Shown one piece after another: positions 46,935 through 53,972 of a stretch of DNA of 64,000 nt (the first letter of the stretch is position 1; every line of letters starts with the position of its first letter). The position numbers were made by a program, and so were the translations under genes. Origin of the DNA: Methylotenera sp. (GTDB lineage Bacteria; Pseudomonadota; Gammaproteobacteria; Burkholderiales; Methylophilaceae); the NCBI GenBank assembly GCA_035393325.1, contig DAOOXC010000002.1, positions 9,650 through 73,649 of the forward strand, written 5' to 3'. The notes beneath the pieces are model-generated. The model did no database searches. It was not told the DNA's origin and was given only the letters and a program-made list of their open reading frames with translations.

Positions 46935-47324
46935 TTGCCAGCAAAAACCAGAAAGCTGAGCAGTAGTGAAATGGCGATTTATGCGCCATTTTTTACGCAT
47001 GAAGTGTTGCAAAAAGCCCGCATTGTAGATGGGCAAACGCCTTTTTGGTTGCGCCCTAGCATGTACGCGGTGGTGCTGAATCACACGATATACTTTCGTA
47101 CGGGTTATTATCAGCCAAACACTTTGCGTGGTGTGGAGTTGCTTGGGCATGAGCTCACGCATGTAGAGCAATATTTGCAAGGCATGACCATTTGGCATTA
47201 TGTGTGGGAGAGCCGTCGCGGTTATGTAAAAAATCGTTACGAGGTGGCTGCCTACGCAAAAGGTGCTATGATTAGAAACGCGGTTGCTGGGCAACCATCA
47301 TTCAACAAAAATTTTCAAATTTGA
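46935..47324 (+). CDS. DUF4157-like small protein with HExxH motif
   Basis: HELTHVEQY preceded by NHTIYFRTGYY, the pattern of DUF4157 (eCIS core) domains. TTG start; an alternative ATG lies at 46971. Confidence 0.55.
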   Translation: MPAKTRKLSSSEMAIYAPFFTHEVLQKARIVDGQTPFWLRPSMYAVVLNHTIYFRTGYYQPNTLRGVELLGHELTHVEQYLQGMTIWHYVWESRRGYVKNRYEVAAYAKGAMIRNAVAGQPSFNKNFQI

Positions 47325-48550: not shown

Positions 48551-49324
48551 ATGCAGTTAAAGCAAGAATATGATTCAAAAGGATATGTCTTAATTCGTAA
48601 CTTTTTTAGTCCAGAAGAAATTCAAGAGTTAATTCAAGAAATTAAAAAAACCTCCAGTGAAAATGTTTCAACAGATCAGTTAAATCTAGGAAATCTTAAA
48701 TTTAACAGCTTAATTATGCATAAAAGCCAAAAATTGCGTGAATTCATATCACAAGAAAAAGTGGTGAATTTAATTAGTCAGTTTATTGGCCCTAATTTTT
48801 GGGTGCGGTGGGATCAAGCAGTAGAAAAAGGGCCTGGCGCTGGCACGTTTCCTTGGCATACGGATAACTCTTATAGCCGCTTAAAAGATCCGCATTGCCA
48901 ATTTTGGATTTCATTAACCAAAATGACAAAAGAAAACGGTGGTATTTGGATGATACCAGGCAGCCACAAAAAGAAATATGAGCATAAACATGACGGTTGT
49001 CACATGTCAGCTACCTGTGATGAGCAAAATGCCGAATTTATTTCAGCTGAAATCGGCGATATTGTGGTTTTTAATTCTTTTACTCTACACTCAACTACGC
49101 CTAATGTTACCCAAGAAAGTCGTTGGGCTTATGTGCTTGAGTACATGAATATTAAACATATTGATCCATATATTTCAAAACCCCATTTAATCATTGCTAA
49201 AGATGGTAAGCCTCAGCTTGAATATGTGGACAAACTTGAAGGGGAGGATAGTTTGTATAATACATTTAAATATTTACGCCCAAGAGAGCGGTGGCGTAAA
49301 TTTAAGCATGGTGTACTGAGTTAG
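48551..49324 (+). CDS. phytanoyl-CoA dioxygenase (PhyH) family Fe(II)/2-oxoglutarate oxygenase
   Basis: YDSKGYVLIRNFFS, FPWHTDNSY (HxD), IWMIPGSHK, LHSTTPN (distal His). AT-rich gene bracketed by terminators. Confidence 0.75.
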   Translation: MQLKQEYDSKGYVLIRNFFSPEEIQELIQEIKKTSSENVSTDQLNLGNLKFNSLIMHKSQKLREFISQEKVVNLISQFIGPNFWVRWDQAVEKGPGAGTFPWHTDNSYSRLKDPHCQFWISLTKMTKENGGIWMIPGSHKKKYEHKHDGCHMSATCDEQNAEFISAEIGDIVVFNSFTLHSTTPNVTQESRWAYVLEYMNIKHIDPYISKPHLIIAKDGKPQLEYVDKLEGEDSLYNTFKYLRPRERWRKFKHGVLS

Positions 49325-49349
49325 TACGATTATTTGCCGCGCAACATCT

Positions 49350-49378
49350 AAACAGGGTCATAAATGACCCTGTTTTTT
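49350..49378 (+). terminator. intrinsic terminator
   Basis: ACAGGGTCA-taaa-TGACCCTGT followed by TTTTT. Confidence 0.85.
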
Positions 49379-49593
49379 ATTCTAAACTCATGAGTAAAAG
49401 TCTTTGCCAGCGCTAAGTCCTGCAAGCGATGAGGTAGCGTCTTGTGTTGCGTAAAAACTACATGAATTATTCTAATTTAAATCTAAAGCCTTTTTATTCA
49501 TGAAGTTAAGTTAGAATTGTAATCATCAATATCAATTATCTTATTGTTATCTATGAATAATTCTATATCTGAACCCATCAAATTAAGTTAGCA

Positions 49594-52500
49594 ATGATGA
49601 ATTTAACGGCCATTTACACCAAAACTGCTGAAGGATTACGAGTACGTAAAGCCCTCTTTGGCGGGTTGTCTGCGCCGCTTAAACGGGTCATAGACCTAGT
49701 TGATGGGCATGAGAGCGTTCAAGCGATTGCTAAGCAGTTAAGTGATATGCCAGAGTCAAAAGTGATTGCGGCAGTCACGCAGCTTGAAAAAGACGGCTAT
49801 ATTAAATACTTATCAGAGGCAACTACTGAAGATGATTGGGAGTTTGGAACCGTTTTTTCACCCATGGTGGTAGAAGAAATTGAAGTAGAAGATCAATTGG
49901 ACTTCCCAGCGGATTTGGCACCATCGCAATTAGCGGAAATTGTAGAAGCTAACCGCCTAGAAGATGAACGCAAAGCGCGAGAAATTAAAGCGCAAATTCG
50001 TTTAAAAGAAAAAGCAAAAGCAGAGATTGAAGAGAATGCACGTATAGAGGCACAACGTATTGCACAAGAGGCGATTGAAAAAGAAAAAACCGAAAATCAA
50101 GCCCGAGCAAAAGCTGCTTTAGAGGCGAAGTTAAAGGCTGAGGCGGAGGAGCTGGCGCGCCAGCTTGCAGAACAAAAAGCCCGAGAAGAAGCAGAGAAAA
50201 TCCAGCAGGAAAAAGATCGTTTAGAACGTGAGGCGCAAGCACTTGCAGAGGCTAGCGCTGCTGCTGAAGCTCAAGCCAAATTAGAAGCGGAAGCGAAGAA
50301 ACAAGCTGAAGAAAATGAAAAAGCCCGCTTGGAGGCCGAGAGAATTGCCAGTGAGGCCGCAGAGGTGCAACGTCAAGCTGATTTGCGTGCCGCAAAAATA
50401 ATAGCTGAAGAAGAGGCCAAAGCTGCGGAAGAAGCCTTACGCATTGCACAATTGCAAGCAATACGTGAAGCAGAAGAACGTGCTAACGCTGAAGCAGAAC
50501 AGATTGCCGTTGAGTTGAGGCTGAAGCAAGAGGCTGAGGATAAAATTCGTATTGAAGCAGAGCGCGCCGCACGCGAAGCTGAAGAAAAGCAAAGAAATGC
50601 AGAAGAAACGCTACATAAAGCTGAGCTAGAGGCGCAAGCACTGGTTGAGCGAATTCGCGCGAAAGAAAAAGCGCGGCGTGAGCAGGTGCGAAAAACCCGA
50701 GAAGAAGAAGCGGCTAAACAAAAAGCCGATGAAGAAGCCAAAGCGGCTGAAGACGCACGCTTGGCACAAGAGCAACAAGCAAGACAGGAAGCAGAAGCGC
50801 AAGAAAGGGCACTTGCCGAAGCACGCGCAATTGAAGAGGCAAAACAAAAAGCGCGGCTAGAAGCAGAGCGCATTTTGCGTGAAGAAGAAAATGCCCGACG
50901 TGAGGCTGAAGAAGCAGCACGCTTGGAAGCCGAACGTATTGCGCAAGAGGAAGAAGCTACTCGACGCAAAGCGGAGGAAGCGGAACTGCAAAAGGCACAG
51001 GAAGAAGCGGAAGAAATCTCCCGCCTAGCGGCTGAGAAACAAGCGCGTTTAGAGGCAGAAACAATCGCACTTGCGCAAGAAGAGGCGCGCGCCGAAAAAG
51101 AACGCGTAGCACAAGAAAAAGCGCGGGCTGCGCAAGAAAAAGCAGAAGAGAAAGCCCGAGTCAAAGCCGAAGAAAAGGCACAAAAAGAAGCAGAAAAACG
51201 CGCCAAGCAAGAACAAAAAGCAGCGCGCGCCGCTGAAAAAGCAGCTCAAAAGCTGGCCAAAATGCAAACGATTGCGCCGATGGGGGCGCATGACAGCAGG
51301 CTTGGTGCTGATGATGGTGACCGAGAGATTTTGAGCTGGGAGGTCATGCAGGCGCAAATTAAACACCAATCTTCACGCAAGAAGTTGCGTTTGCCAAAAG
51401 TGCTTTCAGCCTCCAATTTAAAAATATGGTTTAAGCGGTTTATTCGGTTTTTAGTCATTTATGTGCCGATTTTGGCTCTTGTTTTGTTAGGCTTCATGCA
51501 CTTTGCGCCCTTAACTATGCTGGTTGAGCCAGTGGAAAAAATTGCATCAGACAGTCTTGGCACTCCGGTTAAGGTGGGCGAGGTGCGTGCATCACTTTGG
51601 CCGCAGCCACATTTTGTATTACAACAAGTTACATTAGGTGAAAAAAAATCGATATTGAATGTCGGAGTTGCGCATATTGAACCTGAAATTTCAACATTAT
51701 TTGATAAAACTAAAGTCATGCATTCGATCACAGTGGATGGTTTAAATATAGCGCAAGAAGACTACGCCATACCGCTGCAATCAGTTAATAAGCTTATCGC
51801 TTCTGACCAACTAGATGTTAGGGCAATCCAGTTTAAAAATGTGAAATTAAATATTAACGAATTTGTGTTTGGCACTTTTGACGGTTGGGTTGATTTTGAT
51901 AAAACTCGTGGCTTAAGTGGGTTAGAAATGAAAAGTGTTGAACAGGCATTAACGCTACATATCAGACCAGTAAATGGCACATATCAAGTGATGATGAAAG
52001 CGCAGCAATATAAATTACCATTTGGAGAAAAGGTGGTGTTTGATGAAATTACTGCACATGGACTTTATCAGCAAAACCAAGTTAACTTTGACCAAATTGA
52101 CGGTGAAATTTACGGGGGTGATTTTAATGCTAATGCACTACTCAATTGGCAAAACGCATGGCAAATAACGGGTGACTTTAAGCTCAACAAAGTTAATACG
52201 CAGCAGGTTTTAAAAGCATTTTCTAGTGCAGGTTCGGTAGATGGTAAGCTGACTTTATCGGGTAATTTTAATGCGCATTCAACCAGTGCGGCAACTTTGA
52301 TGGATGCGGCTGAAGTAAATGCAAGTTTTGAGGTTCCAAACAGCAAAATCAGCGGTATTGATATACCGCGCAATATTGTTACGCCGACAGACCAATCGCT
52401 AGAAGGTTACGCTACCTATTTTGATAAACTTTCTGGAAATCTTAAAGTGGCGAATGGGCGTTATCAATATCGAAATTTAGTTTTAAAATCAGCCAAGTTA

Positions 52501-52638
52501 CAGGTGCAAGGTCAAGTAGATATTGATGACAAGCAAAATATTTCAGGTAAGTTGAGCGCTAATTTATATACCCCCACCCGAAACTTTCAAACGCAATATG
52601 ACCTAACGGGCAAAATTGACAATGTAAAACGAAAGTGA
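49594..52638 (+). CDS. 1014-aa protein: small N-terminal globular domain, ~440-aa E/A/K/R/Q-rich helical tract, one TM helix, ~390-aa AsmA-like C-terminal domain
   Basis: Long uninterrupted ORF. The charged tract runs from about residue 118 to 555, with recurring ARLEAERIAxEAEE-like units. A basic stretch (SSRKKLRLPK..KRFIRF) precedes the TM helix LVIYVPILALVLLGFMHFAPL. The C-terminal region (GTPVKVGEVRASLWPQPHFVLQQVTLG...) resembles the AsmA-family N-terminal motif. Confidence 0.8.
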   Translation: MMNLTAIYTKTAEGLRVRKALFGGLSAPLKRVIDLVDGHESVQAIAKQLSDMPESKVIAAVTQLEKDGYIKYLSEATTEDDWEFGTVFSPMVVEEIEVEDQLDFPADLAPSQLAEIVEANRLEDERKAREIKAQIRLKEKAKAEIEENARIEAQRIAQEAIEKEKTENQARAKAALEAKLKAEAEELARQLAEQKAREEAEKIQQEKDRLEREAQALAEASAAAEAQAKLEAEAKKQAEENEKARLEAERIASEAAEVQRQADLRAAKIIAEEEAKAAEEALRIAQLQAIREAEERANAEAEQIAVELRLKQEAEDKIRIEAERAAREAEEKQRNAEETLHKAELEAQALVERIRAKEKARREQVRKTREEEAAKQKADEEAKAAEDARLAQEQQARQEAEAQERALAEARAIEEAKQKARLEAERILREEENARREAEEAARLEAERIAQEEEATRRKAEEAELQKAQEEAEEISRLAAEKQARLEAETIALAQEEARAEKERVAQEKARAAQEKAEEKARVKAEEKAQKEAEKRAKQEQKAARAAEKAAQKLAKMQTIAPMGAHDSRLGADDGDREILSWEVMQAQIKHQSSRKKLRLPKVLSASNLKIWFKRFIRFLVIYVPILALVLLGFMHFAPLTMLVEPVEKIASDSLGTPVKVGEVRASLWPQPHFVLQQVTLGEKKSILNVGVAHIEPEISTLFDKTKVMHSITVDGLNIAQEDYAIPLQSVNKLIASDQLDVRAIQFKNVKLNINEFVFGTFDGWVDFDKTRGLSGLEMKSVEQALTLHIRPVNGTYQVMMKAQQYKLPFGEKVVFDEITAHGLYQQNQVNFDQIDGEIYGGDFNANALLNWQNAWQITGDFKLNKVNTQQVLKAFSSAGSVDGKLTLSGNFNAHSTSAATLMDAAEVNASFEVPNSKISGIDIPRNIVTPTDQSLEGYATYFDKLSGNLKVANGRYQYRNLVLKSAKLQVQGQVDIDDKQNISGKLSANLYTPTRNFQTQYDLTGKIDNVKRK

Positions 52639-52745
52639 CTTAACAAATTGACATGGCAAAGTGACTTGGCAAGCATTTTCACCTTAACTATGCGCGGCAT
52701 AATGCGTTAAAATGTGGCCATGTTAACTCTTGAAAGTTGTTTGTT

Positions 52746-53972
52746 ATGCCAGTCAAACTCAGCGCCCCGCTAGCCGCATCATTATTACCTGTAAGGGGTG
52801 TTCAATTAGGCTTTGCCCAAGCGCACGTGCGCAAACCAAACCGTAAAGATGTGCTAGTAATTAAACTTGCTGAGCAAAGCAGAGTCGCGGGTGTTTTTAC
52901 TAATAACCGCTTTTGTGCTGCGCCGGTGATTTTGTGTAAAGAATTTTTAGCGCAAAAAGCCGGCATTCGTGCGCTGTTGGTTAATACTGGCTGCGCTAAT
53001 GCGGGGACTGGTGAAGATGGCTTGAATCGTGCCAAACAAAGTTGTGAAGTGCTCGGCGGTTTGCTTGGGTTGAACGCGAACCAAGTGTTGCCATTTTCTA
53101 CCGGGGTGATTTTAGAGCCATTGCCTGTGGATAAAGTGATTGCCGGCTTGCCTGCCGCGATTGAAAACCTCAAAGAAGATAACTGGCTGAACGCGGCTGA
53201 GGCGATTATGACCACCGATATTGTCGCCAAAGGAACTTCTAGGTCGCTGATGTTGGACGGAAAGCAGGTCACCATCACCGGCATCAGCAAAGGCAGCGGC
53301 ATGATACACCCTAACATGGCAACCATGCTGGGCTACATTGCCACGGATGCTGCCGTGAGCCAATGCACGCTAGAAAACATCATTCAATACGCGGTGAATA
53401 AATCGTTTAACTGCATTACGGTAGATGGCGATACCAGCACCAACGATAGCCTGATTTTGATGGCGACCAATTTGGCTGGCAATACGGAAATTACCGAACA
53501 AAGCGCAGATTTTGTAACCTTGCGCGATGCGATGACTGCGGTGGCGATTGAGCTTGCACAAGCCATTGTGCGCGATGGTGAAGGTGCGACCAAGTTTATG
53601 ACCATTCAAGTGCAGGCTGGAAAAGACGAAGCCGAATGCCGCAAAGTGGCGTATGCCATTGCGCACTCACCGCTCATCAAAACCGCATTTTTTGCGTCAG
53701 ACCCAAACTTGGGGCGTATTTTAGCGGCCATTGGCTATGCGGGTGTGGATGACCTAGATGTCAATAATATGGAACTCTATTTGGGTGATGTGCTAGTGGC
53801 AGAAAAAGGTGGGCGCGCAGTAAGCTATCAAGAAGAGCAGGGCGCGGCGATTATGAAAGAAAGCGATATTCTGGTGCGCGTGGTGTTAAATCGCGGAAGC
53901 GCGACAAGCACGGTCTGGACGTGTGACTTCTCTTACGACTACGTGAAAATTAACGCGGATTACAGAAGTTAA
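52746..53972 (+). CDS. argJ: bifunctional glutamate N-acetyltransferase / amino-acid acetyltransferase
   Basis: [31 protein letters not shown] (autocleavage ATML), [15 protein letters not shown]-terminus. Confidence 0.95.

What the first reader, a model, noticed from the sequence alone, without database searches (positions are those of the whole stretch)
49594..52638. Giant protein: predicted cytoplasmic ~440-residue E/A/K/R helical tract, one TM helix, then an AsmA-like domain
Residues ~118-555 (nt ~49945-51260) consist almost only of E, A, K, R and Q, with recurring units such as ARLEAERIAQEEE, IRIEAERAAREAEE and ARLEAERILREEE. This composition is typical of ER/K single alpha-helices or long coiled coils. 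If fully helical it would span tens of nanometres. It is preceded by a ~115-aa globular N-terminal domain. A basic stretch and one TM helix follow, and positive-inside logic puts the helical tract in the cytoplasm. The remaining ~390 aa begin like AsmA-family proteins (GTPVKVGEVRASLWPQPHFVLQQVTLG). Known AsmA-like proteins (AsmA, TamB, YhdP) start with the TM anchor, so a 600-aa cytoplasmic extension is not something I recognise. The layout also differs from TolA, where the TM helix comes first and the helical domain is periplasmic. The gene stands alone between strong terminators and an AT-rich upstream region.
Basis: partly seen in the sequence, partly recalled or inferred. Interest (0 to 1): 0.65.

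Follow-up and report, generated by a model that had tools for sequence, protein, structure and literature searches.

The report
AsmA-like protein with long cytoplasmic helix
This gene encodes a real, conserved but unstudied inner-membrane protein that joins a short AsmA-type lipid-groove domain in the periplasm to a roughly 65-nm charged single helix and a small winged-helix head in the cytoplasm, a layout not described for this protein family.

Summary
ORF 49594..52638 (+) encodes 1014 aa. It has a folded N-terminal domain (res 1-78) and an acidic linker. A 438-residue tract (res 118-555) is 83% A/E/R/K/Q with no Pro or Gly. One TM helix (~619-641) follows a basic segment, and the C-terminal ~373 aa match AsmA (Pfam above cutoff; hhalign 95% to E. 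coli AsmA).

The tract behaves like a single alpha-helix. Opposite-charge i/i+4 pairs number 103 against 51±6 in shuffles, and there is no heptad signal.

It is not an assembly artefact. Three independent metagenomes assemble the gene with 0-1 differences.

The architecture defines an unnamed family. The N-domain profile finds 653 protein clusters, and 48 of 56 uncut genes found with an N-domain pattern carry the same C-domain. In 24 aligned members (23 GTDB loci, Methylophilaceae/Sulfuricellaceae/Gallionellaceae) the end domains keep their length while the tract varies from 278 to 582 aa.

The N-domain is an orphan winged helix. It also occurs fused to receiver domains. Some members carry a class III cyclase in the cytoplasmic part, which supports a cytoplasmic location.

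No conserved operon partner was found. The function is inferred: a membrane-anchored long-reach spacer that couples a cytoplasmic binding head to a periplasmic lipid-groove module. This is a new variant of a known kind.

The parts
49350..49375 (+). Terminator-like hairpin of the upstream PhyH gene. It separates that gene from this one.
   Evidence: 11-bp stem with 5 GC pairs, followed by a T-run.
49376..49593 (+). AT-rich upstream intergenic region, the presumed promoter region.
   Evidence: GC 0.32-0.35. Sequence read. No consensus sigma-70 site was called here.
49594..52638 (+). Complete gene, 1014 aa plus stop codon.
   Evidence: A single contig spans it with 0-1 differences in three independent metagenome runs.
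49594..49827 (+). N-terminal orphan winged-helix domain (res 1-78) with the signature (I/V)(Y/F)(T/S)-K-T-x-K-G at res 7-14.
   Evidence: In the AF2 model, 10-residue block means of pLDDT are 72-91 across residues 1-80 (whole 117-residue model mean 72.7), with order beta-alpha-alpha-alpha-alpha-beta. Foldseek finds winged-helix domains of NPRL2/3, RPC39 and RPA32C. There are sub-threshold wHTH Pfam and PDB profile hits. A 45-sequence alignment shows K10 invariant and T11, G14, L25, D37 and L64 at 90% or more.
49828..49944 (+). Acidic, probably disordered linker (res 79-117). It carries two conserved short motifs: PMVVEEI (res 90-96, nt 49861-49881) and LDF (res 102-104, nt 49897-49905).
   Evidence: pLDDT is below 50 over residues 81-90, 94-97 and 99-101, with block means of 45-52 from residue 81 on. 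One or both motifs are present in 110 of 144 family members.
49945..51258 (+). A/E/R/K/Q tract (res 118-555), a predicted single alpha-helix about 66 nm long if straight.
   Evidence: Composition and absence of Pro/Gly. i/i+4 salt-bridge enrichment z = 9.7, same-charge pairs depleted, no heptad periodicity. The same signature occurs in 23 of the 24 aligned family members (z 4.8-14.4; L013 is the exception at 1.6). DNA repeats are only degenerate, at most 86% identity over about 22 nt.
51259..51375 (+). Non-repetitive hinge (res 556-594) between the tract and the juxtamembrane segment. It contains Pro and Gly.
   Evidence: Sequence read.
51376..51447 (+). Basic juxtamembrane segment (res 595-618, RKKLRLPK...KIWFKRFIR).
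   Evidence: 8 K/R and 0 D/E in the 25 residues before the TM helix. The same bias is seen across the family.
51448..51516 (+). Single transmembrane helix (res ~619-641).
   Evidence: The only Kyte-Doolittle peak above 1.5 in the protein. Helical in the AF2 model.
51517..52635 (+). Periplasmic AsmA-like domain (res 642-1014, 373 aa), a 'mini-AsmA'. It has an AsmA/DUF748-like start directly after the TM helix and an AsmA C-terminal-like end (Pfam match res 812-958, nt 52027-52467).
   Evidence: Pfam AsmA at 45.9 bits against a cutoff of 29.8, and DUF748 N-terminal positions 11-118. NCBIfam AsmA E = 1.8e-14, GspN_Lepto 4.9e-9, TamB 1e-6, all partial and below their cutoffs. hhalign to E. coli AsmA residues 355-524 gives 95.3% probability, E = 2.4e-8. 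The only family-relevant PDB profile hit is TamB, E = 0.017. The AF2 model has pLDDT 79 and consists of long antiparallel strands. Domain length is 365-393 aa in all 24 aligned members.

Best explanation
The gene encodes a bitopic inner-membrane protein of a conserved, unnamed family.

Shown:
- From N to C, the protein has a cytoplasmic orphan winged-helix domain, an acidic linker with conserved short motifs, and a 438-residue charged tract with the sequence statistics of a stable single alpha-helix.
- These are followed by a basic juxtamembrane segment, one TM helix and a periplasmic AsmA-homologous domain of fixed size, about 373 aa.
- That domain combines the start and the C-terminal end of AsmA.

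Inferred:
- The periplasmic part is a short hydrophobic beta-groove anchored in the inner membrane. It would handle lipids or lipidated cargo as AsmA-like proteins and GspN do.
- The cytoplasmic helix would act as a long semi-rigid spacer or leash. Its length, 278-582 aa in 24 aligned relatives (23 GTDB loci plus the window), is free to vary while its composition and charge pattern are kept.
- The helix would hold the winged-helix head, a binding module, tens of nanometres from the membrane.
- In this way a cytoplasmic partner or signal would be physically coupled to, or would localise, an envelope lipid-handling site.

The ligand of the winged-helix head and the cargo of the groove are both unknown.
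For: Architecture and composition.

AsmA homology.

Single-helix signature. The signature is conserved in 23 of the 24 aligned family members (z 4.8-14.4; L013 is the exception at 1.6), and the positive-inside bias is seen across the family.

Family conservation:
- 29 loci were found in GTDB genomes (Methylotenera/Methylophilaceae, Sulfuricella, Gallionellaceae), and 23 of them yielded a complete ORF with the N-terminal motif.
- In those 23 loci plus the window, the N-domain is about 90-110 aa, the tract 278-582 aa, and the C-domain 365-393 aa.
- The N-domain profile finds 653 clusters at 50% identity with E <= 1e-3.
- 75 of the best 150 are full-length with the same C-domain, and most of the rest are fragments.
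- Among the 80 metagenome loci kept from an N-domain pattern scan, 48 of the 56 genes not cut by a contig end carry the C-domain.

Indels concentrate in the tract. Against relatives there are 60-228 gap positions in the tract and 0-9 in the end domains. A related strain has a 24-nt in-frame deletion in the tract.

Cytoplasmic, signalling-type context of the N-terminal part: two members have a class III cyclase domain embedded there, and the N-domain also occurs fused to receiver domains.

Physical reality of the gene: three independent assemblies are identical to the window, and two 100%-identical metatranscriptome contigs lie inside the tract.

Literature: AsmA-like proteins are normally anchored by an N-terminal helix (PMC10345924). 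The short AsmA-like protein GspN acts at the inner membrane on lipoproteins (PMC12802150).
Against: - No experiment bears on this protein, and no conserved operon partner was found to suggest a pathway.
- The tract is unusually Ala-rich (27%) for a classical ER/K helix, and its helicity and monomeric state were not modelled.
- Class III cyclase domains work as dimers (established knowledge). The cyclase-bearing relatives therefore imply that at least some family members dimerise.
- Foldseek against the PDB did not recover TamB or any beta-taco structure for the C-domain model. The groove fold therefore rests on sequence homology and secondary structure only.
- The winged-helix head gives only generic, sub-threshold matches, so 'binding module' is a class-level inference.
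Confidence: 0.6

Rival explanations
1. The tract is not a single helix. It pairs with a second chain as a parallel dimer, or folds back on itself as an antiparallel Ala-rich coiled coil. The reach would then be halved and the protein would be an obligate oligomer.
For: Ala makes up 27% of the tract, and Ala-rich helices can pack closely. Relatives with an embedded class III cyclase domain imply dimerisation, because such domains act as dimers (established knowledge). When Ala is counted as hydrophobic, a/d occupancy reaches 0.9 in some windows.
Against: L/I/V/M/F show no 3.5-residue periodicity (power 0.33, at noise level). No 35-residue window reaches a/d occupancy of 0.6, and the values equal those of shuffles. 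The i/i+4 opposite-charge pairs are doubled and same-charge pairs are cut to a third, which marks intrahelical salt-bridge networks. The pattern is conserved across the family.
Confidence: 0.2
2. It is a membrane-tethered DNA-binding protein, analogous to ToxR/CadC or to a nucleoid-membrane tether. The winged helix would bind chromosomal DNA, and the long helix would let it reach the nucleoid while the periplasmic domain senses the state of the envelope.
For: The N-domain gives weak matches to DNA-binding wHTH families such as HTH_24, MarR_2, TrmB, HxlR and IclR. Its mean net charge is slightly positive, at +2. CAF-1 is a precedent that combines a single alpha-helix with a winged-helix domain in DNA binding (PMC10335832).
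Against: Positions of the putative recognition helix (res 54-63) are variable and often acidic. The conserved surface residues lie instead in the beta1-alpha1 turn (K10, T11, K13, G14) and the D37-G38 turn. The model shows no beta-hairpin wing. The best structural matches are protein-binding winged helices: NPRL2/3 and RPA32C. The tract has a net charge of -20, unlike the DNA-binding KER helix. There is no match to the OmpR/ToxR-type Trans_reg_C domain.
Confidence: 0.12
3. The tract is a flexible polyampholyte (an entropic bristle or brush) with no defined length. It would act by excluded volume, for example keeping the nucleoid or ribosomes away, or sorting the protein to nucleoid-free zones.
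For: Tract length and sequence drift freely while composition is kept. It is a low-complexity region.
Against: Composition alone would not produce the strict i/i+4 charge register (z 4.8-14.4 in 23 of the 24 aligned members) or the complete avoidance of Pro and Gly over 438 residues. Both point to selection for helix stability.
Confidence: 0.07
4. It is a TolA-like protein. The helical tract would be periplasmic and would span the envelope.
For: The A/E/K-rich helical composition resembles TolA domain II (established knowledge).
Against: The domain order is reversed, with the tract before the TM helix. There is no signal peptide. The positive-inside bias places the tract in the cytoplasm. Cyclase and receiver fusions mark the N-terminal part as cytoplasmic. 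There are no TolA family hits, and the C-terminal domain is AsmA-like, a family that is periplasmic (PMC10345924).
Confidence: 0.01
5. It is an assembly artefact or a spurious ORF across a repetitive region.
For: The DNA is low-complexity and purine-rich (AT skew up to 0.75).
Against: Three runs from different samples and studies each give one contig across the whole gene with 0-1 differences. There are no long near-identical DNA repeats. Hundreds of homologues share the same architecture.
Confidence: 0.005

Closest known systems
AsmA (E. coli b2064) and the AsmA-like / repeating beta-groove family (TamB, YhdP, YdbH, YhjG, YicH)
   Same: The protein has one inner-membrane anchor helix followed directly by a periplasmic beta-rich domain. 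Its sequence matches the AsmA model above Pfam's cutoff, and E. coli AsmA residues 355-524 at 95% hhalign probability. There is a weak profile hit to TamB.
   Different: The anchor helix lies about 615 residues from the N-terminus rather than at it. The periplasmic part is only about 373 aa, against 617 aa for the whole of AsmA, and lacks the middle of AsmA. A winged helix plus a long charged helix sits on the cytoplasmic side. A review describes the family as anchored by an N-terminal helix (PMC10345924).
GspN (type II secretion protein N), a short AsmA-like protein
   Same: It is a short, single-pass, inner-membrane-anchored AsmA-like beta-groove protein that cannot bridge the periplasm alone. 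There is a partial match to the Leptospira-type GspN model (E = 4.9e-9). GspN handles lipoproteins (PMC12802150).
   Different: The score is below the GspN cutoff (36 against 50 bits). No gsp genes are nearby. GspN has no cytoplasmic extension.
ER/K-type single alpha-helix (SAH) domains (myosin VI/X, caldesmon, INCENP, CAF-1 KER)
   Same: The tract is rich in E, K and R, has no hydrophobic seam, and shows a strong i/i+4 opposite-charge register. Known SAH domains act as spacers, leashes or rulers (established knowledge; CAF-1: PMC10335832).
   Different: The tract is much longer than typical SAH domains: 438 residues here and up to 582 in the 24 aligned relatives. To my recollection, typical SAH domains are tens to about 200 residues. 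It is Ala-rich (27%), net negative, bacterial, and attached to a membrane anchor.
TolA
   Same: It is a single-pass inner-membrane protein with a long A/E/K-rich helical domain.
   Different: TolA runs TM, then periplasmic helix, then domain III. Here the helix precedes the TM helix and is cytoplasmic. There is no TolA family match.
RodZ and ToxR-type bitopic proteins (cytoplasmic HTH - TM - periplasmic domain)
   Same: An N-terminal cytoplasmic helix-turn-helix-type domain is followed by a basic juxtamembrane segment, one TM helix and a periplasmic domain.
   Different: The domain families differ: there is no Xre-type or OmpR-type HTH match. A spacer of about 440 residues is inserted between the HTH-type domain and the membrane, and the periplasmic domain is AsmA-like.

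Membership tests
AsmA-like family (Pfam AsmA PF05170 and relatives) | Sequence match to the family model above the curated threshold | tested here: met
   PF05170 scores 45.9 bits against a cutoff of 29.8, E = 4.9e-12, covering residues 812-958 and profile positions 453-603 of 607.
AsmA-like family (Pfam AsmA PF05170 and relatives) | Homology to a founding member (E. coli AsmA) | tested here: met
   hhalign of the family alignment A2 against E. coli AsmA gives 95.3% probability and E = 2.4e-8 over 158 columns, AsmA residues 355-524. The NCBIfam AsmA model gives E = 1.8e-14 but is a partial match far below its equivalog cutoff.
AsmA-like family (Pfam AsmA PF05170 and relatives) | Inner-membrane anchor helix at the extreme N-terminus, followed at once by the periplasmic domain | tested here: not met
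   The anchor helix is followed at once by an AsmA/DUF748-like start. However, it lies at residues ~619-641, behind a 615-residue cytoplasmic region. The review PMC10345924 describes an N-terminal anchor helix.
AsmA-like family (Pfam AsmA PF05170 and relatives) | Beta-taco / repeating beta-groove fold with a hydrophobic groove | tested here: inconclusive
   The AF2 model has mean pLDDT 79 and consists of long antiparallel strands with few helices. Foldseek against the PDB returned no meaningful match, and no TamB. Groove hydrophobicity was not examined.
AsmA-like family (Pfam AsmA PF05170 and relatives) | [quoted passage not shown] | not testable with these tools
   This needs genetics and biochemistry.
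ER/K single alpha-helix (SAH) | Enrichment of oppositely charged residues at i/i+4, and depletion of like charges | tested here: met
   There are 103 favourable pairs against 51±6 in shuffles, and 18 same-charge pairs against 51±6. Across the family z is 4.8-14.4 in 23 of the 24 aligned members, with L013 the exception at 1.6.
ER/K single alpha-helix (SAH) | No heptad hydrophobic seam (that is, not a coiled coil) | tested here: met
   Power at period 3.5 for L/I/V/M/F is 0.33. The highest a/d occupancy is 0.5, equal to shuffles.
ER/K single alpha-helix (SAH) | Composition dominated by E, K and R | tested here: inconclusive
   E+K+R make up 47% and Ala 27%. This is more Ala-rich than classical ER/K helices.
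ER/K single alpha-helix (SAH) | Stable, monomeric, extended helix in solution | not testable with these tools
   This needs CD, SAXS or AUC.
TolA | N-terminal TM helix, then a periplasmic helical domain II, then the TolA C-terminal domain III | tested here: not met
   The order is reversed. There are no TolA family hits in Pfam or NCBIfam.
GspN (T2SS protein N) | Match to a GspN model above its cutoff, and location in a gsp operon | tested here: not met
   TIGR04411 scores 36.1 bits against a cutoff of 50. The neighbours are an eCIS_core-domain protein, a LysM protein, a lipoprotein, PhyH and ArgJ.
ToxR/CadC-type membrane-bound transcription factors | OmpR-type winged-helix DNA-binding domain (Trans_reg_C) at the cytoplasmic N-terminus | tested here: not met
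   There is no Trans_reg_C hit. The N-domain gives only scattered sub-threshold hits to other wHTH families.
Winged-helix superfamily (N-domain) | Three-helix bundle with a helix-turn-helix packed against a small beta-sheet | tested here: met
   The AF2 model shows E6-10, H12-19, H27-35, H42-48, H54-66 and E70-75. Foldseek top hits are winged-helix domains with rmsd about 2.1-2.4 Å over 74-77 columns, but E >= 5e-3. PDB profile hits to MarR/HxlR-type proteins and RPA32C have E of about 1e-3. No single Pfam family is reached above its cutoff.

The most novel reading that the evidence does not exclude
The family may be a previously unrecognised class of trans-membrane 'long-reach' couplers. In this reading a bacterial single alpha-helix of 40-90 nm, among the longest natural ones, acts as a molecular ruler. 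It would hold a dedicated winged-helix receptor deep in the cytoplasm and link whatever that receptor binds to a periplasmic lipid-groove module. Candidate ligands are a cytoskeletal or nucleoid-associated partner, or a nucleotide signal, as the cyclase-bearing and receiver-fused relatives hint. Envelope lipid handling would then be positioned or regulated from the cell interior.
Probability: 0.3. Interest if true: 0.8.

Novelty: new variant of a known kind. Interest (0 to 1): 0.6.

Why it matters
AsmA-like proteins are the bacterial relatives of eukaryotic bridge-like lipid transporters. They are central to the open question of how phospholipids reach the outer membrane. All described members are purely periplasmic machines with a bare N-terminal anchor.

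This family has a conserved cytoplasmic head and a very long, length-variable single helix. That would be the first indication that an AsmA-type module can be wired to the cytoplasm, whether for localisation, regulation or signalling.

It also supplies a natural series of bacterial single-alpha-helix spacers. They range from about 280 to 580 residues in 24 aligned members, on otherwise fixed end domains. Such a series is useful for testing ruler and leash ideas, and as protein-engineering parts.

The orphan winged-helix domain (653 clusters, no Pfam or NCBIfam family) deserves a family definition of its own.

Tried and rejected
- A word-indexed homologue search with the N-domain alone found nothing. 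The same search with a 45-sequence profile found only small fragments.
- The first genome scan, with the single protein, found no relatives. The alignment-based scan worked.
- Genomic context was searched in five sets of loci for a conserved partner. Only lineage-specific synteny was found:
  - argJ downstream in the window's clade;
  - a sigma-54 response regulator upstream in Sulfuricella-type loci;
  - 5-oxoprolinase-like and PurL-like genes flanking the gene in a high-GC clade;
  - Npun_R2479-like and M48 peptidase genes in a few loci.
  None of these is general, so no pathway was inferred.
- PADLOC gave only generic wHTH (CasR) similarity, with no defence-system membership.
- A DUF742 link for the N-domain is weak: 2 of 45 members, best E = 1.5e-4 and below cutoff. 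It was not adopted.
- Literature searches for AsmA-like proteins with cytoplasmic, coiled-coil, SAH or winged-helix extensions found no description.
- Uncut genes with the N-domain but no C-domain in metagenomes gave no informative Pfam hits when four of the eight (L062, L079, L083, L095) were scanned. They may be frameshifted.


Full report
**What is there**

The + strand ORF 49594..52638 encodes 1014 aa. Reading the translation gives five parts.
- Residues 1-117 have ordinary composition.
- Residues 118-555 are A 27%, E 25%, R 11%, K 11% and Q 9%, with no Pro or Gly in 438 residues.
- Residues 556-594 form a short mixed hinge.
- Residues 595-618 form a basic segment, which precedes the only hydrophobic stretch of the protein (~619-641).
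- The remaining 373 residues have ordinary, beta-rich composition.

The coding strand of the tract is strongly purine-rich, with AT skew up to 0.75. A terminator-like hairpin (49350-49375) ends the upstream PhyH gene, and the 218 nt before the start codon are AT-rich. I found no terminator between the stop codon and argJ, which starts near 52737.

**Not an artefact**

At DNA level the tract holds only short, degenerate repeats, at most 86% identical over about 22 nt. The 'units' are 60-75% alike. Logan contigs of three activated-sludge metagenome runs, from different samples and studies, each cover 49300-52800 in one piece with 0-1 differences. A related strain in a fourth run differs by many substitutions and by one in-frame 24-nt deletion at 51154, inside the tract. 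A metatranscriptome run contains two contigs identical to 50316-50519 and 50888-51054. This is weak evidence of transcription.

**The C-terminal domain is AsmA-like**

- Pfam AsmA (PF05170) matches residues 812-958 at 45.9 bits against a cutoff of 29.8, aligned to the C-terminal end of the model.
- The first ~100 residues after the TM helix give a weak match to the start of DUF748.
- NCBIfam gives partial, sub-cutoff matches to AsmA (E = 1.8e-14), Leptospira-type GspN (4.9e-9) and TamB (1e-6).
- A profile of five family members gives TamB as its only family-relevant hit in the PDB, at E = 0.017.
- The same profile aligns to E. coli K-12 AsmA residues 355-524 with 95.3% hhalign probability, E = 2.4e-8.
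- The AF2 model of residues 596-1014 has mean pLDDT 79. It shows the TM helix followed by long antiparallel strands.
- Foldseek against the PDB found nothing meaningful, so the beta-groove fold itself is inferred rather than shown.

The domain looks like the start plus the end of AsmA without the middle. It is 373 aa against 617 aa for E. coli AsmA.

**The tract behaves as a single alpha-helix**

- Opposite-charge pairs at i/i+4 number 103, against 50-51 (sd 5.5-5.7) in shuffles (z = 9.7).
- Same-charge i/i+4 pairs number 18, against 51±6.
- Opposite-charge i/i+7 pairs are depleted (z = -4.1).
- L/I/V/M/F show no 3.5-residue periodicity (normalised power 0.33).
- No 35-residue window reaches a/d occupancy of 0.6, exactly as in shuffles.

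This is the signature of intrahelical salt-bridge networks (ER/K or SAH type) and not of a heptad coiled coil. A straight helix of 438 residues would measure about 66 nm.

Some caveats apply. Ala at 27% is high for a classical ER/K helix. I could not model the tract, because both prediction jobs went to the end domains. Ala-based packing or dimerisation is therefore not excluded.

**Topology**

- The N-terminus has no signal peptide. It starts with the conserved motif of the folded domain.
- The 25 residues before the TM helix hold 8 K/R and 0 D/E. The 25 residues after it hold 2 K/R and 3 D/E.
- The same bias holds across the 24 aligned members, at 3-11 K/R before against 1-4 after.
- Relatives P0128 and P0141 carry a class III nucleotide cyclase domain (Pfam Guanylate_cyc) inside the pre-TM region.
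- The N-domain also occurs fused to receiver domains, in P0117 and P0121.
- Cyclase and receiver domains are both cytoplasmic.
- AsmA-like domains are periplasmic (PMC10345924).

The N-in, C-out topology is therefore well supported by sequence, though not experimentally.

**The N-terminal domain**

AF2 folds residues 1-78 as strand, four helices, strand. Ten-residue block means of pLDDT are 72-91 across residues 1-80. From residue 81 the block means fall to 45-52.

Foldseek finds winged-helix domains of NPRL2/NPRL3 in GATOR1, RPC39 and RPA32C, with rmsd about 2.1-2.4 Å over 74-77 columns and E >= 5e-3. Individual family members give scattered sub-threshold Pfam hits to many wHTH families, namely HTH_47, TrmB, RPA_C, HTH_24, MarR_2, HxlR and DUF742. 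The profile finds MarR/HxlR-type proteins and RPA32C in the PDB at E of about 1e-3. It is therefore a winged helix without a named family.

In a 45-sequence alignment K10 is invariant, and T11, G14, L25, D37 and L64 are at least 90% conserved. The signature is (I/V)(Y/F)(T/S)-K-T-x-K-G. The window's clade has E at the second K position. The positions of the would-be recognition helix vary and are often acidic, and mean net charge is +2. This favours a protein- or ligand-binding role over canonical DNA recognition, but does not prove it.

The linker carries two conserved short motifs, PMVVEE(I/F) and (D/E)LDF(T/S). Of 144 members, 110 have at least one. The window has both.

**A conserved family**

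A word-indexed search found only six relatives of the C-domain. Two of them (P0004 from Sulfuricella, and P0005) were full-length with the same N-domain.

A pattern scan of GTDB species genomes found 29 loci in Methylotenera/Methylophilaceae, Sulfuricella/Sulfuricellaceae, Gallionellaceae and a few loosely labelled MAGs. Of these, 23 yielded a complete ORF with the N-terminal motif. In those 23 plus the window, the tract is 278-582 aa and the C-domain 365-393 aa.

An exhaustive HMMER search with a 3-sequence N-domain profile found 653 clusters at E <= 1e-3, and 96 at E <= 1e-10. The domain is at or within about 60 residues of the N-terminus in all 150 best hits. Of these, 75 are complete proteins of 643-1364 aa with the same C-domain, and most of the rest are contig-truncated fragments.

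A metagenome scan found 191 further relatives. Of the 56 genes not cut by a contig end among the 80 loci kept, 48 have the C-domain.

Against relatives, the N-domain and the TM-plus-C part align with 0-9 gap positions. The tract needs 60-228.

Source databases call these proteins 'hypothetical protein', or once 'uncharacterized protein involved in outer membrane biogenesis'. I found no paper describing the architecture.

**Context**

The window's neighbours are an eCIS_core-domain protein, a LysM protein, an Ala/Pro-rich lipoprotein, PhyH, [this gene], ArgJ, a GFA-family protein, a DUF815 ATPase and a NUDIX-ThiE fusion. Across clades only lineage synteny is seen. The gene appears to be monocistronic, and context gives no pathway.

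**How it most likely works**

Shown: the domain order, the AsmA homology, the single-helix sequence signature, the conserved architecture, and the length-variable tract between fixed ends.

Inferred: a short lipid-binding groove sits at the periplasmic face of the inner membrane. [quoted passage not shown] The cytoplasmic helix serves as a spacer or leash. It sets how far into the cytoplasm, tens of nm, the winged-helix head and its docking motifs can reach.

The cyclase-bearing and receiver-fused relatives suggest a regulatory or signalling use of the cytoplasmic module.

My confidence levels:
- About 0.9 for the structural description.
- About 0.45 for the spacer/coupler mechanism.
- About 0.6 for the combined statement.

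**Comparison and novelty**

By sequence the protein belongs with the AsmA-like proteins, but it fails one descriptive feature of that family, the N-terminal anchor. It is not TolA, GspN or a ToxR-type regulator by the tests listed. It works like a fusion of a short AsmA/GspN-type module with a eukaryote-style SAH spacer and a RodZ-like cytoplasmic HTH-type head. I rate it a new variant of a known kind, in an unnamed but widespread environmental family.

Noticed in passing
window 48551-49324: The PhyH-family dioxygenase gene directly upstream lies in a low-GC stretch (0.30-0.39, against about 0.45 around it). It is absent from the otherwise syntenic contig of the closest relative (L030: eCIS_core, LysM, small protein, then the gene). 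It looks like a recent insertion.
   Followed up: partly
window 52632-52672: A 13-nt unit (consensus AAAGTGACATGGC, 3.2 copies, 78% matches) overlaps the stop codon and fills the start of the 98-nt spacer before argJ. No terminator was detected there. It may be a regulator-binding array for argJ.
   Followed up: no
window 49985-51369, minus strand: Several long antisense ORFs lie inside the tract, for example 50373-51206 (277 aa, Ser/Ala/Cys-rich). They are mirror images of the GAA/GCA/AAA-rich coding strand, not genes.
   Followed up: partly
window 49861-49905 (res 90-104); family-wide: Two conserved short linear motifs, PMVVEE(I/F) and (D/E)LDF(T/S), sit in the disordered linker between the winged helix and the tract. 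Of 144 members, 110 have at least one. P0066 has three LDFT copies. They look like peptide docking sites. A resemblance of 'DLDFTxhh' to FtsZ C-terminal or clamp-binding peptides comes from my memory only and is untested.
   Followed up: partly
P0128, P0141 (locus L031 1345-5373): Two family members of 1342 and 1364 aa carry a class III adenylate/guanylate cyclase domain embedded in the cytoplasmic tract. By eye the metal-binding Asp residues and the Asn/Arg pair seem to be kept. This hints at cyclic-nucleotide signalling in part of the family.
   Followed up: partly
P0117 (L032 84-890), P0121, P0055: The N-domain also occurs outside this architecture. In P0117 and P0121 it is fused to a C-terminal receiver domain (255-268 aa). 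In P0055 it occurs as a tandem pair in front of DUF697. In P0040, P0042, P0043, P0059 and P0064 it carries only a Q/A/K/E-rich tract and no TM helix (327-418 aa).
   Followed up: partly
window 51154 (run X4): A related strain in a sludge metagenome has a 24-nt in-frame deletion inside the tract. Tract length is therefore polymorphic between close strains.
   Followed up: yes
L017, L022, L027, L016 (upstream of the homologue): In Sulfuricella-type and Gallionellaceae loci, a sigma-54-dependent response regulator (NtrC-like) lies directly upstream on the same strand. It is 430 aa in L017, L022 and L027 and 363 aa in L016. In L017, L022 and L027 two further conserved genes precede it. This is not seen in the other clades.
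   Followed up: partly
window 46935-47324: A 129-aa protein with an eCIS_core domain (PF13699, E = 1.8e-9) stands alone next to a LysM protein. No other contractile-injection-system genes are in the immediate neighbourhood.
   Followed up: no
L014 vs L028: A contig binned as 'Methylobacter sp.' (L014) encodes a homologue with the same length (875 aa) and the same tract and charge statistics as one binned as Methylophilaceae (L028); sequence identity was not checked directly. This suggests a mis-binned contig in one of the two MAGs.
   Followed up: no
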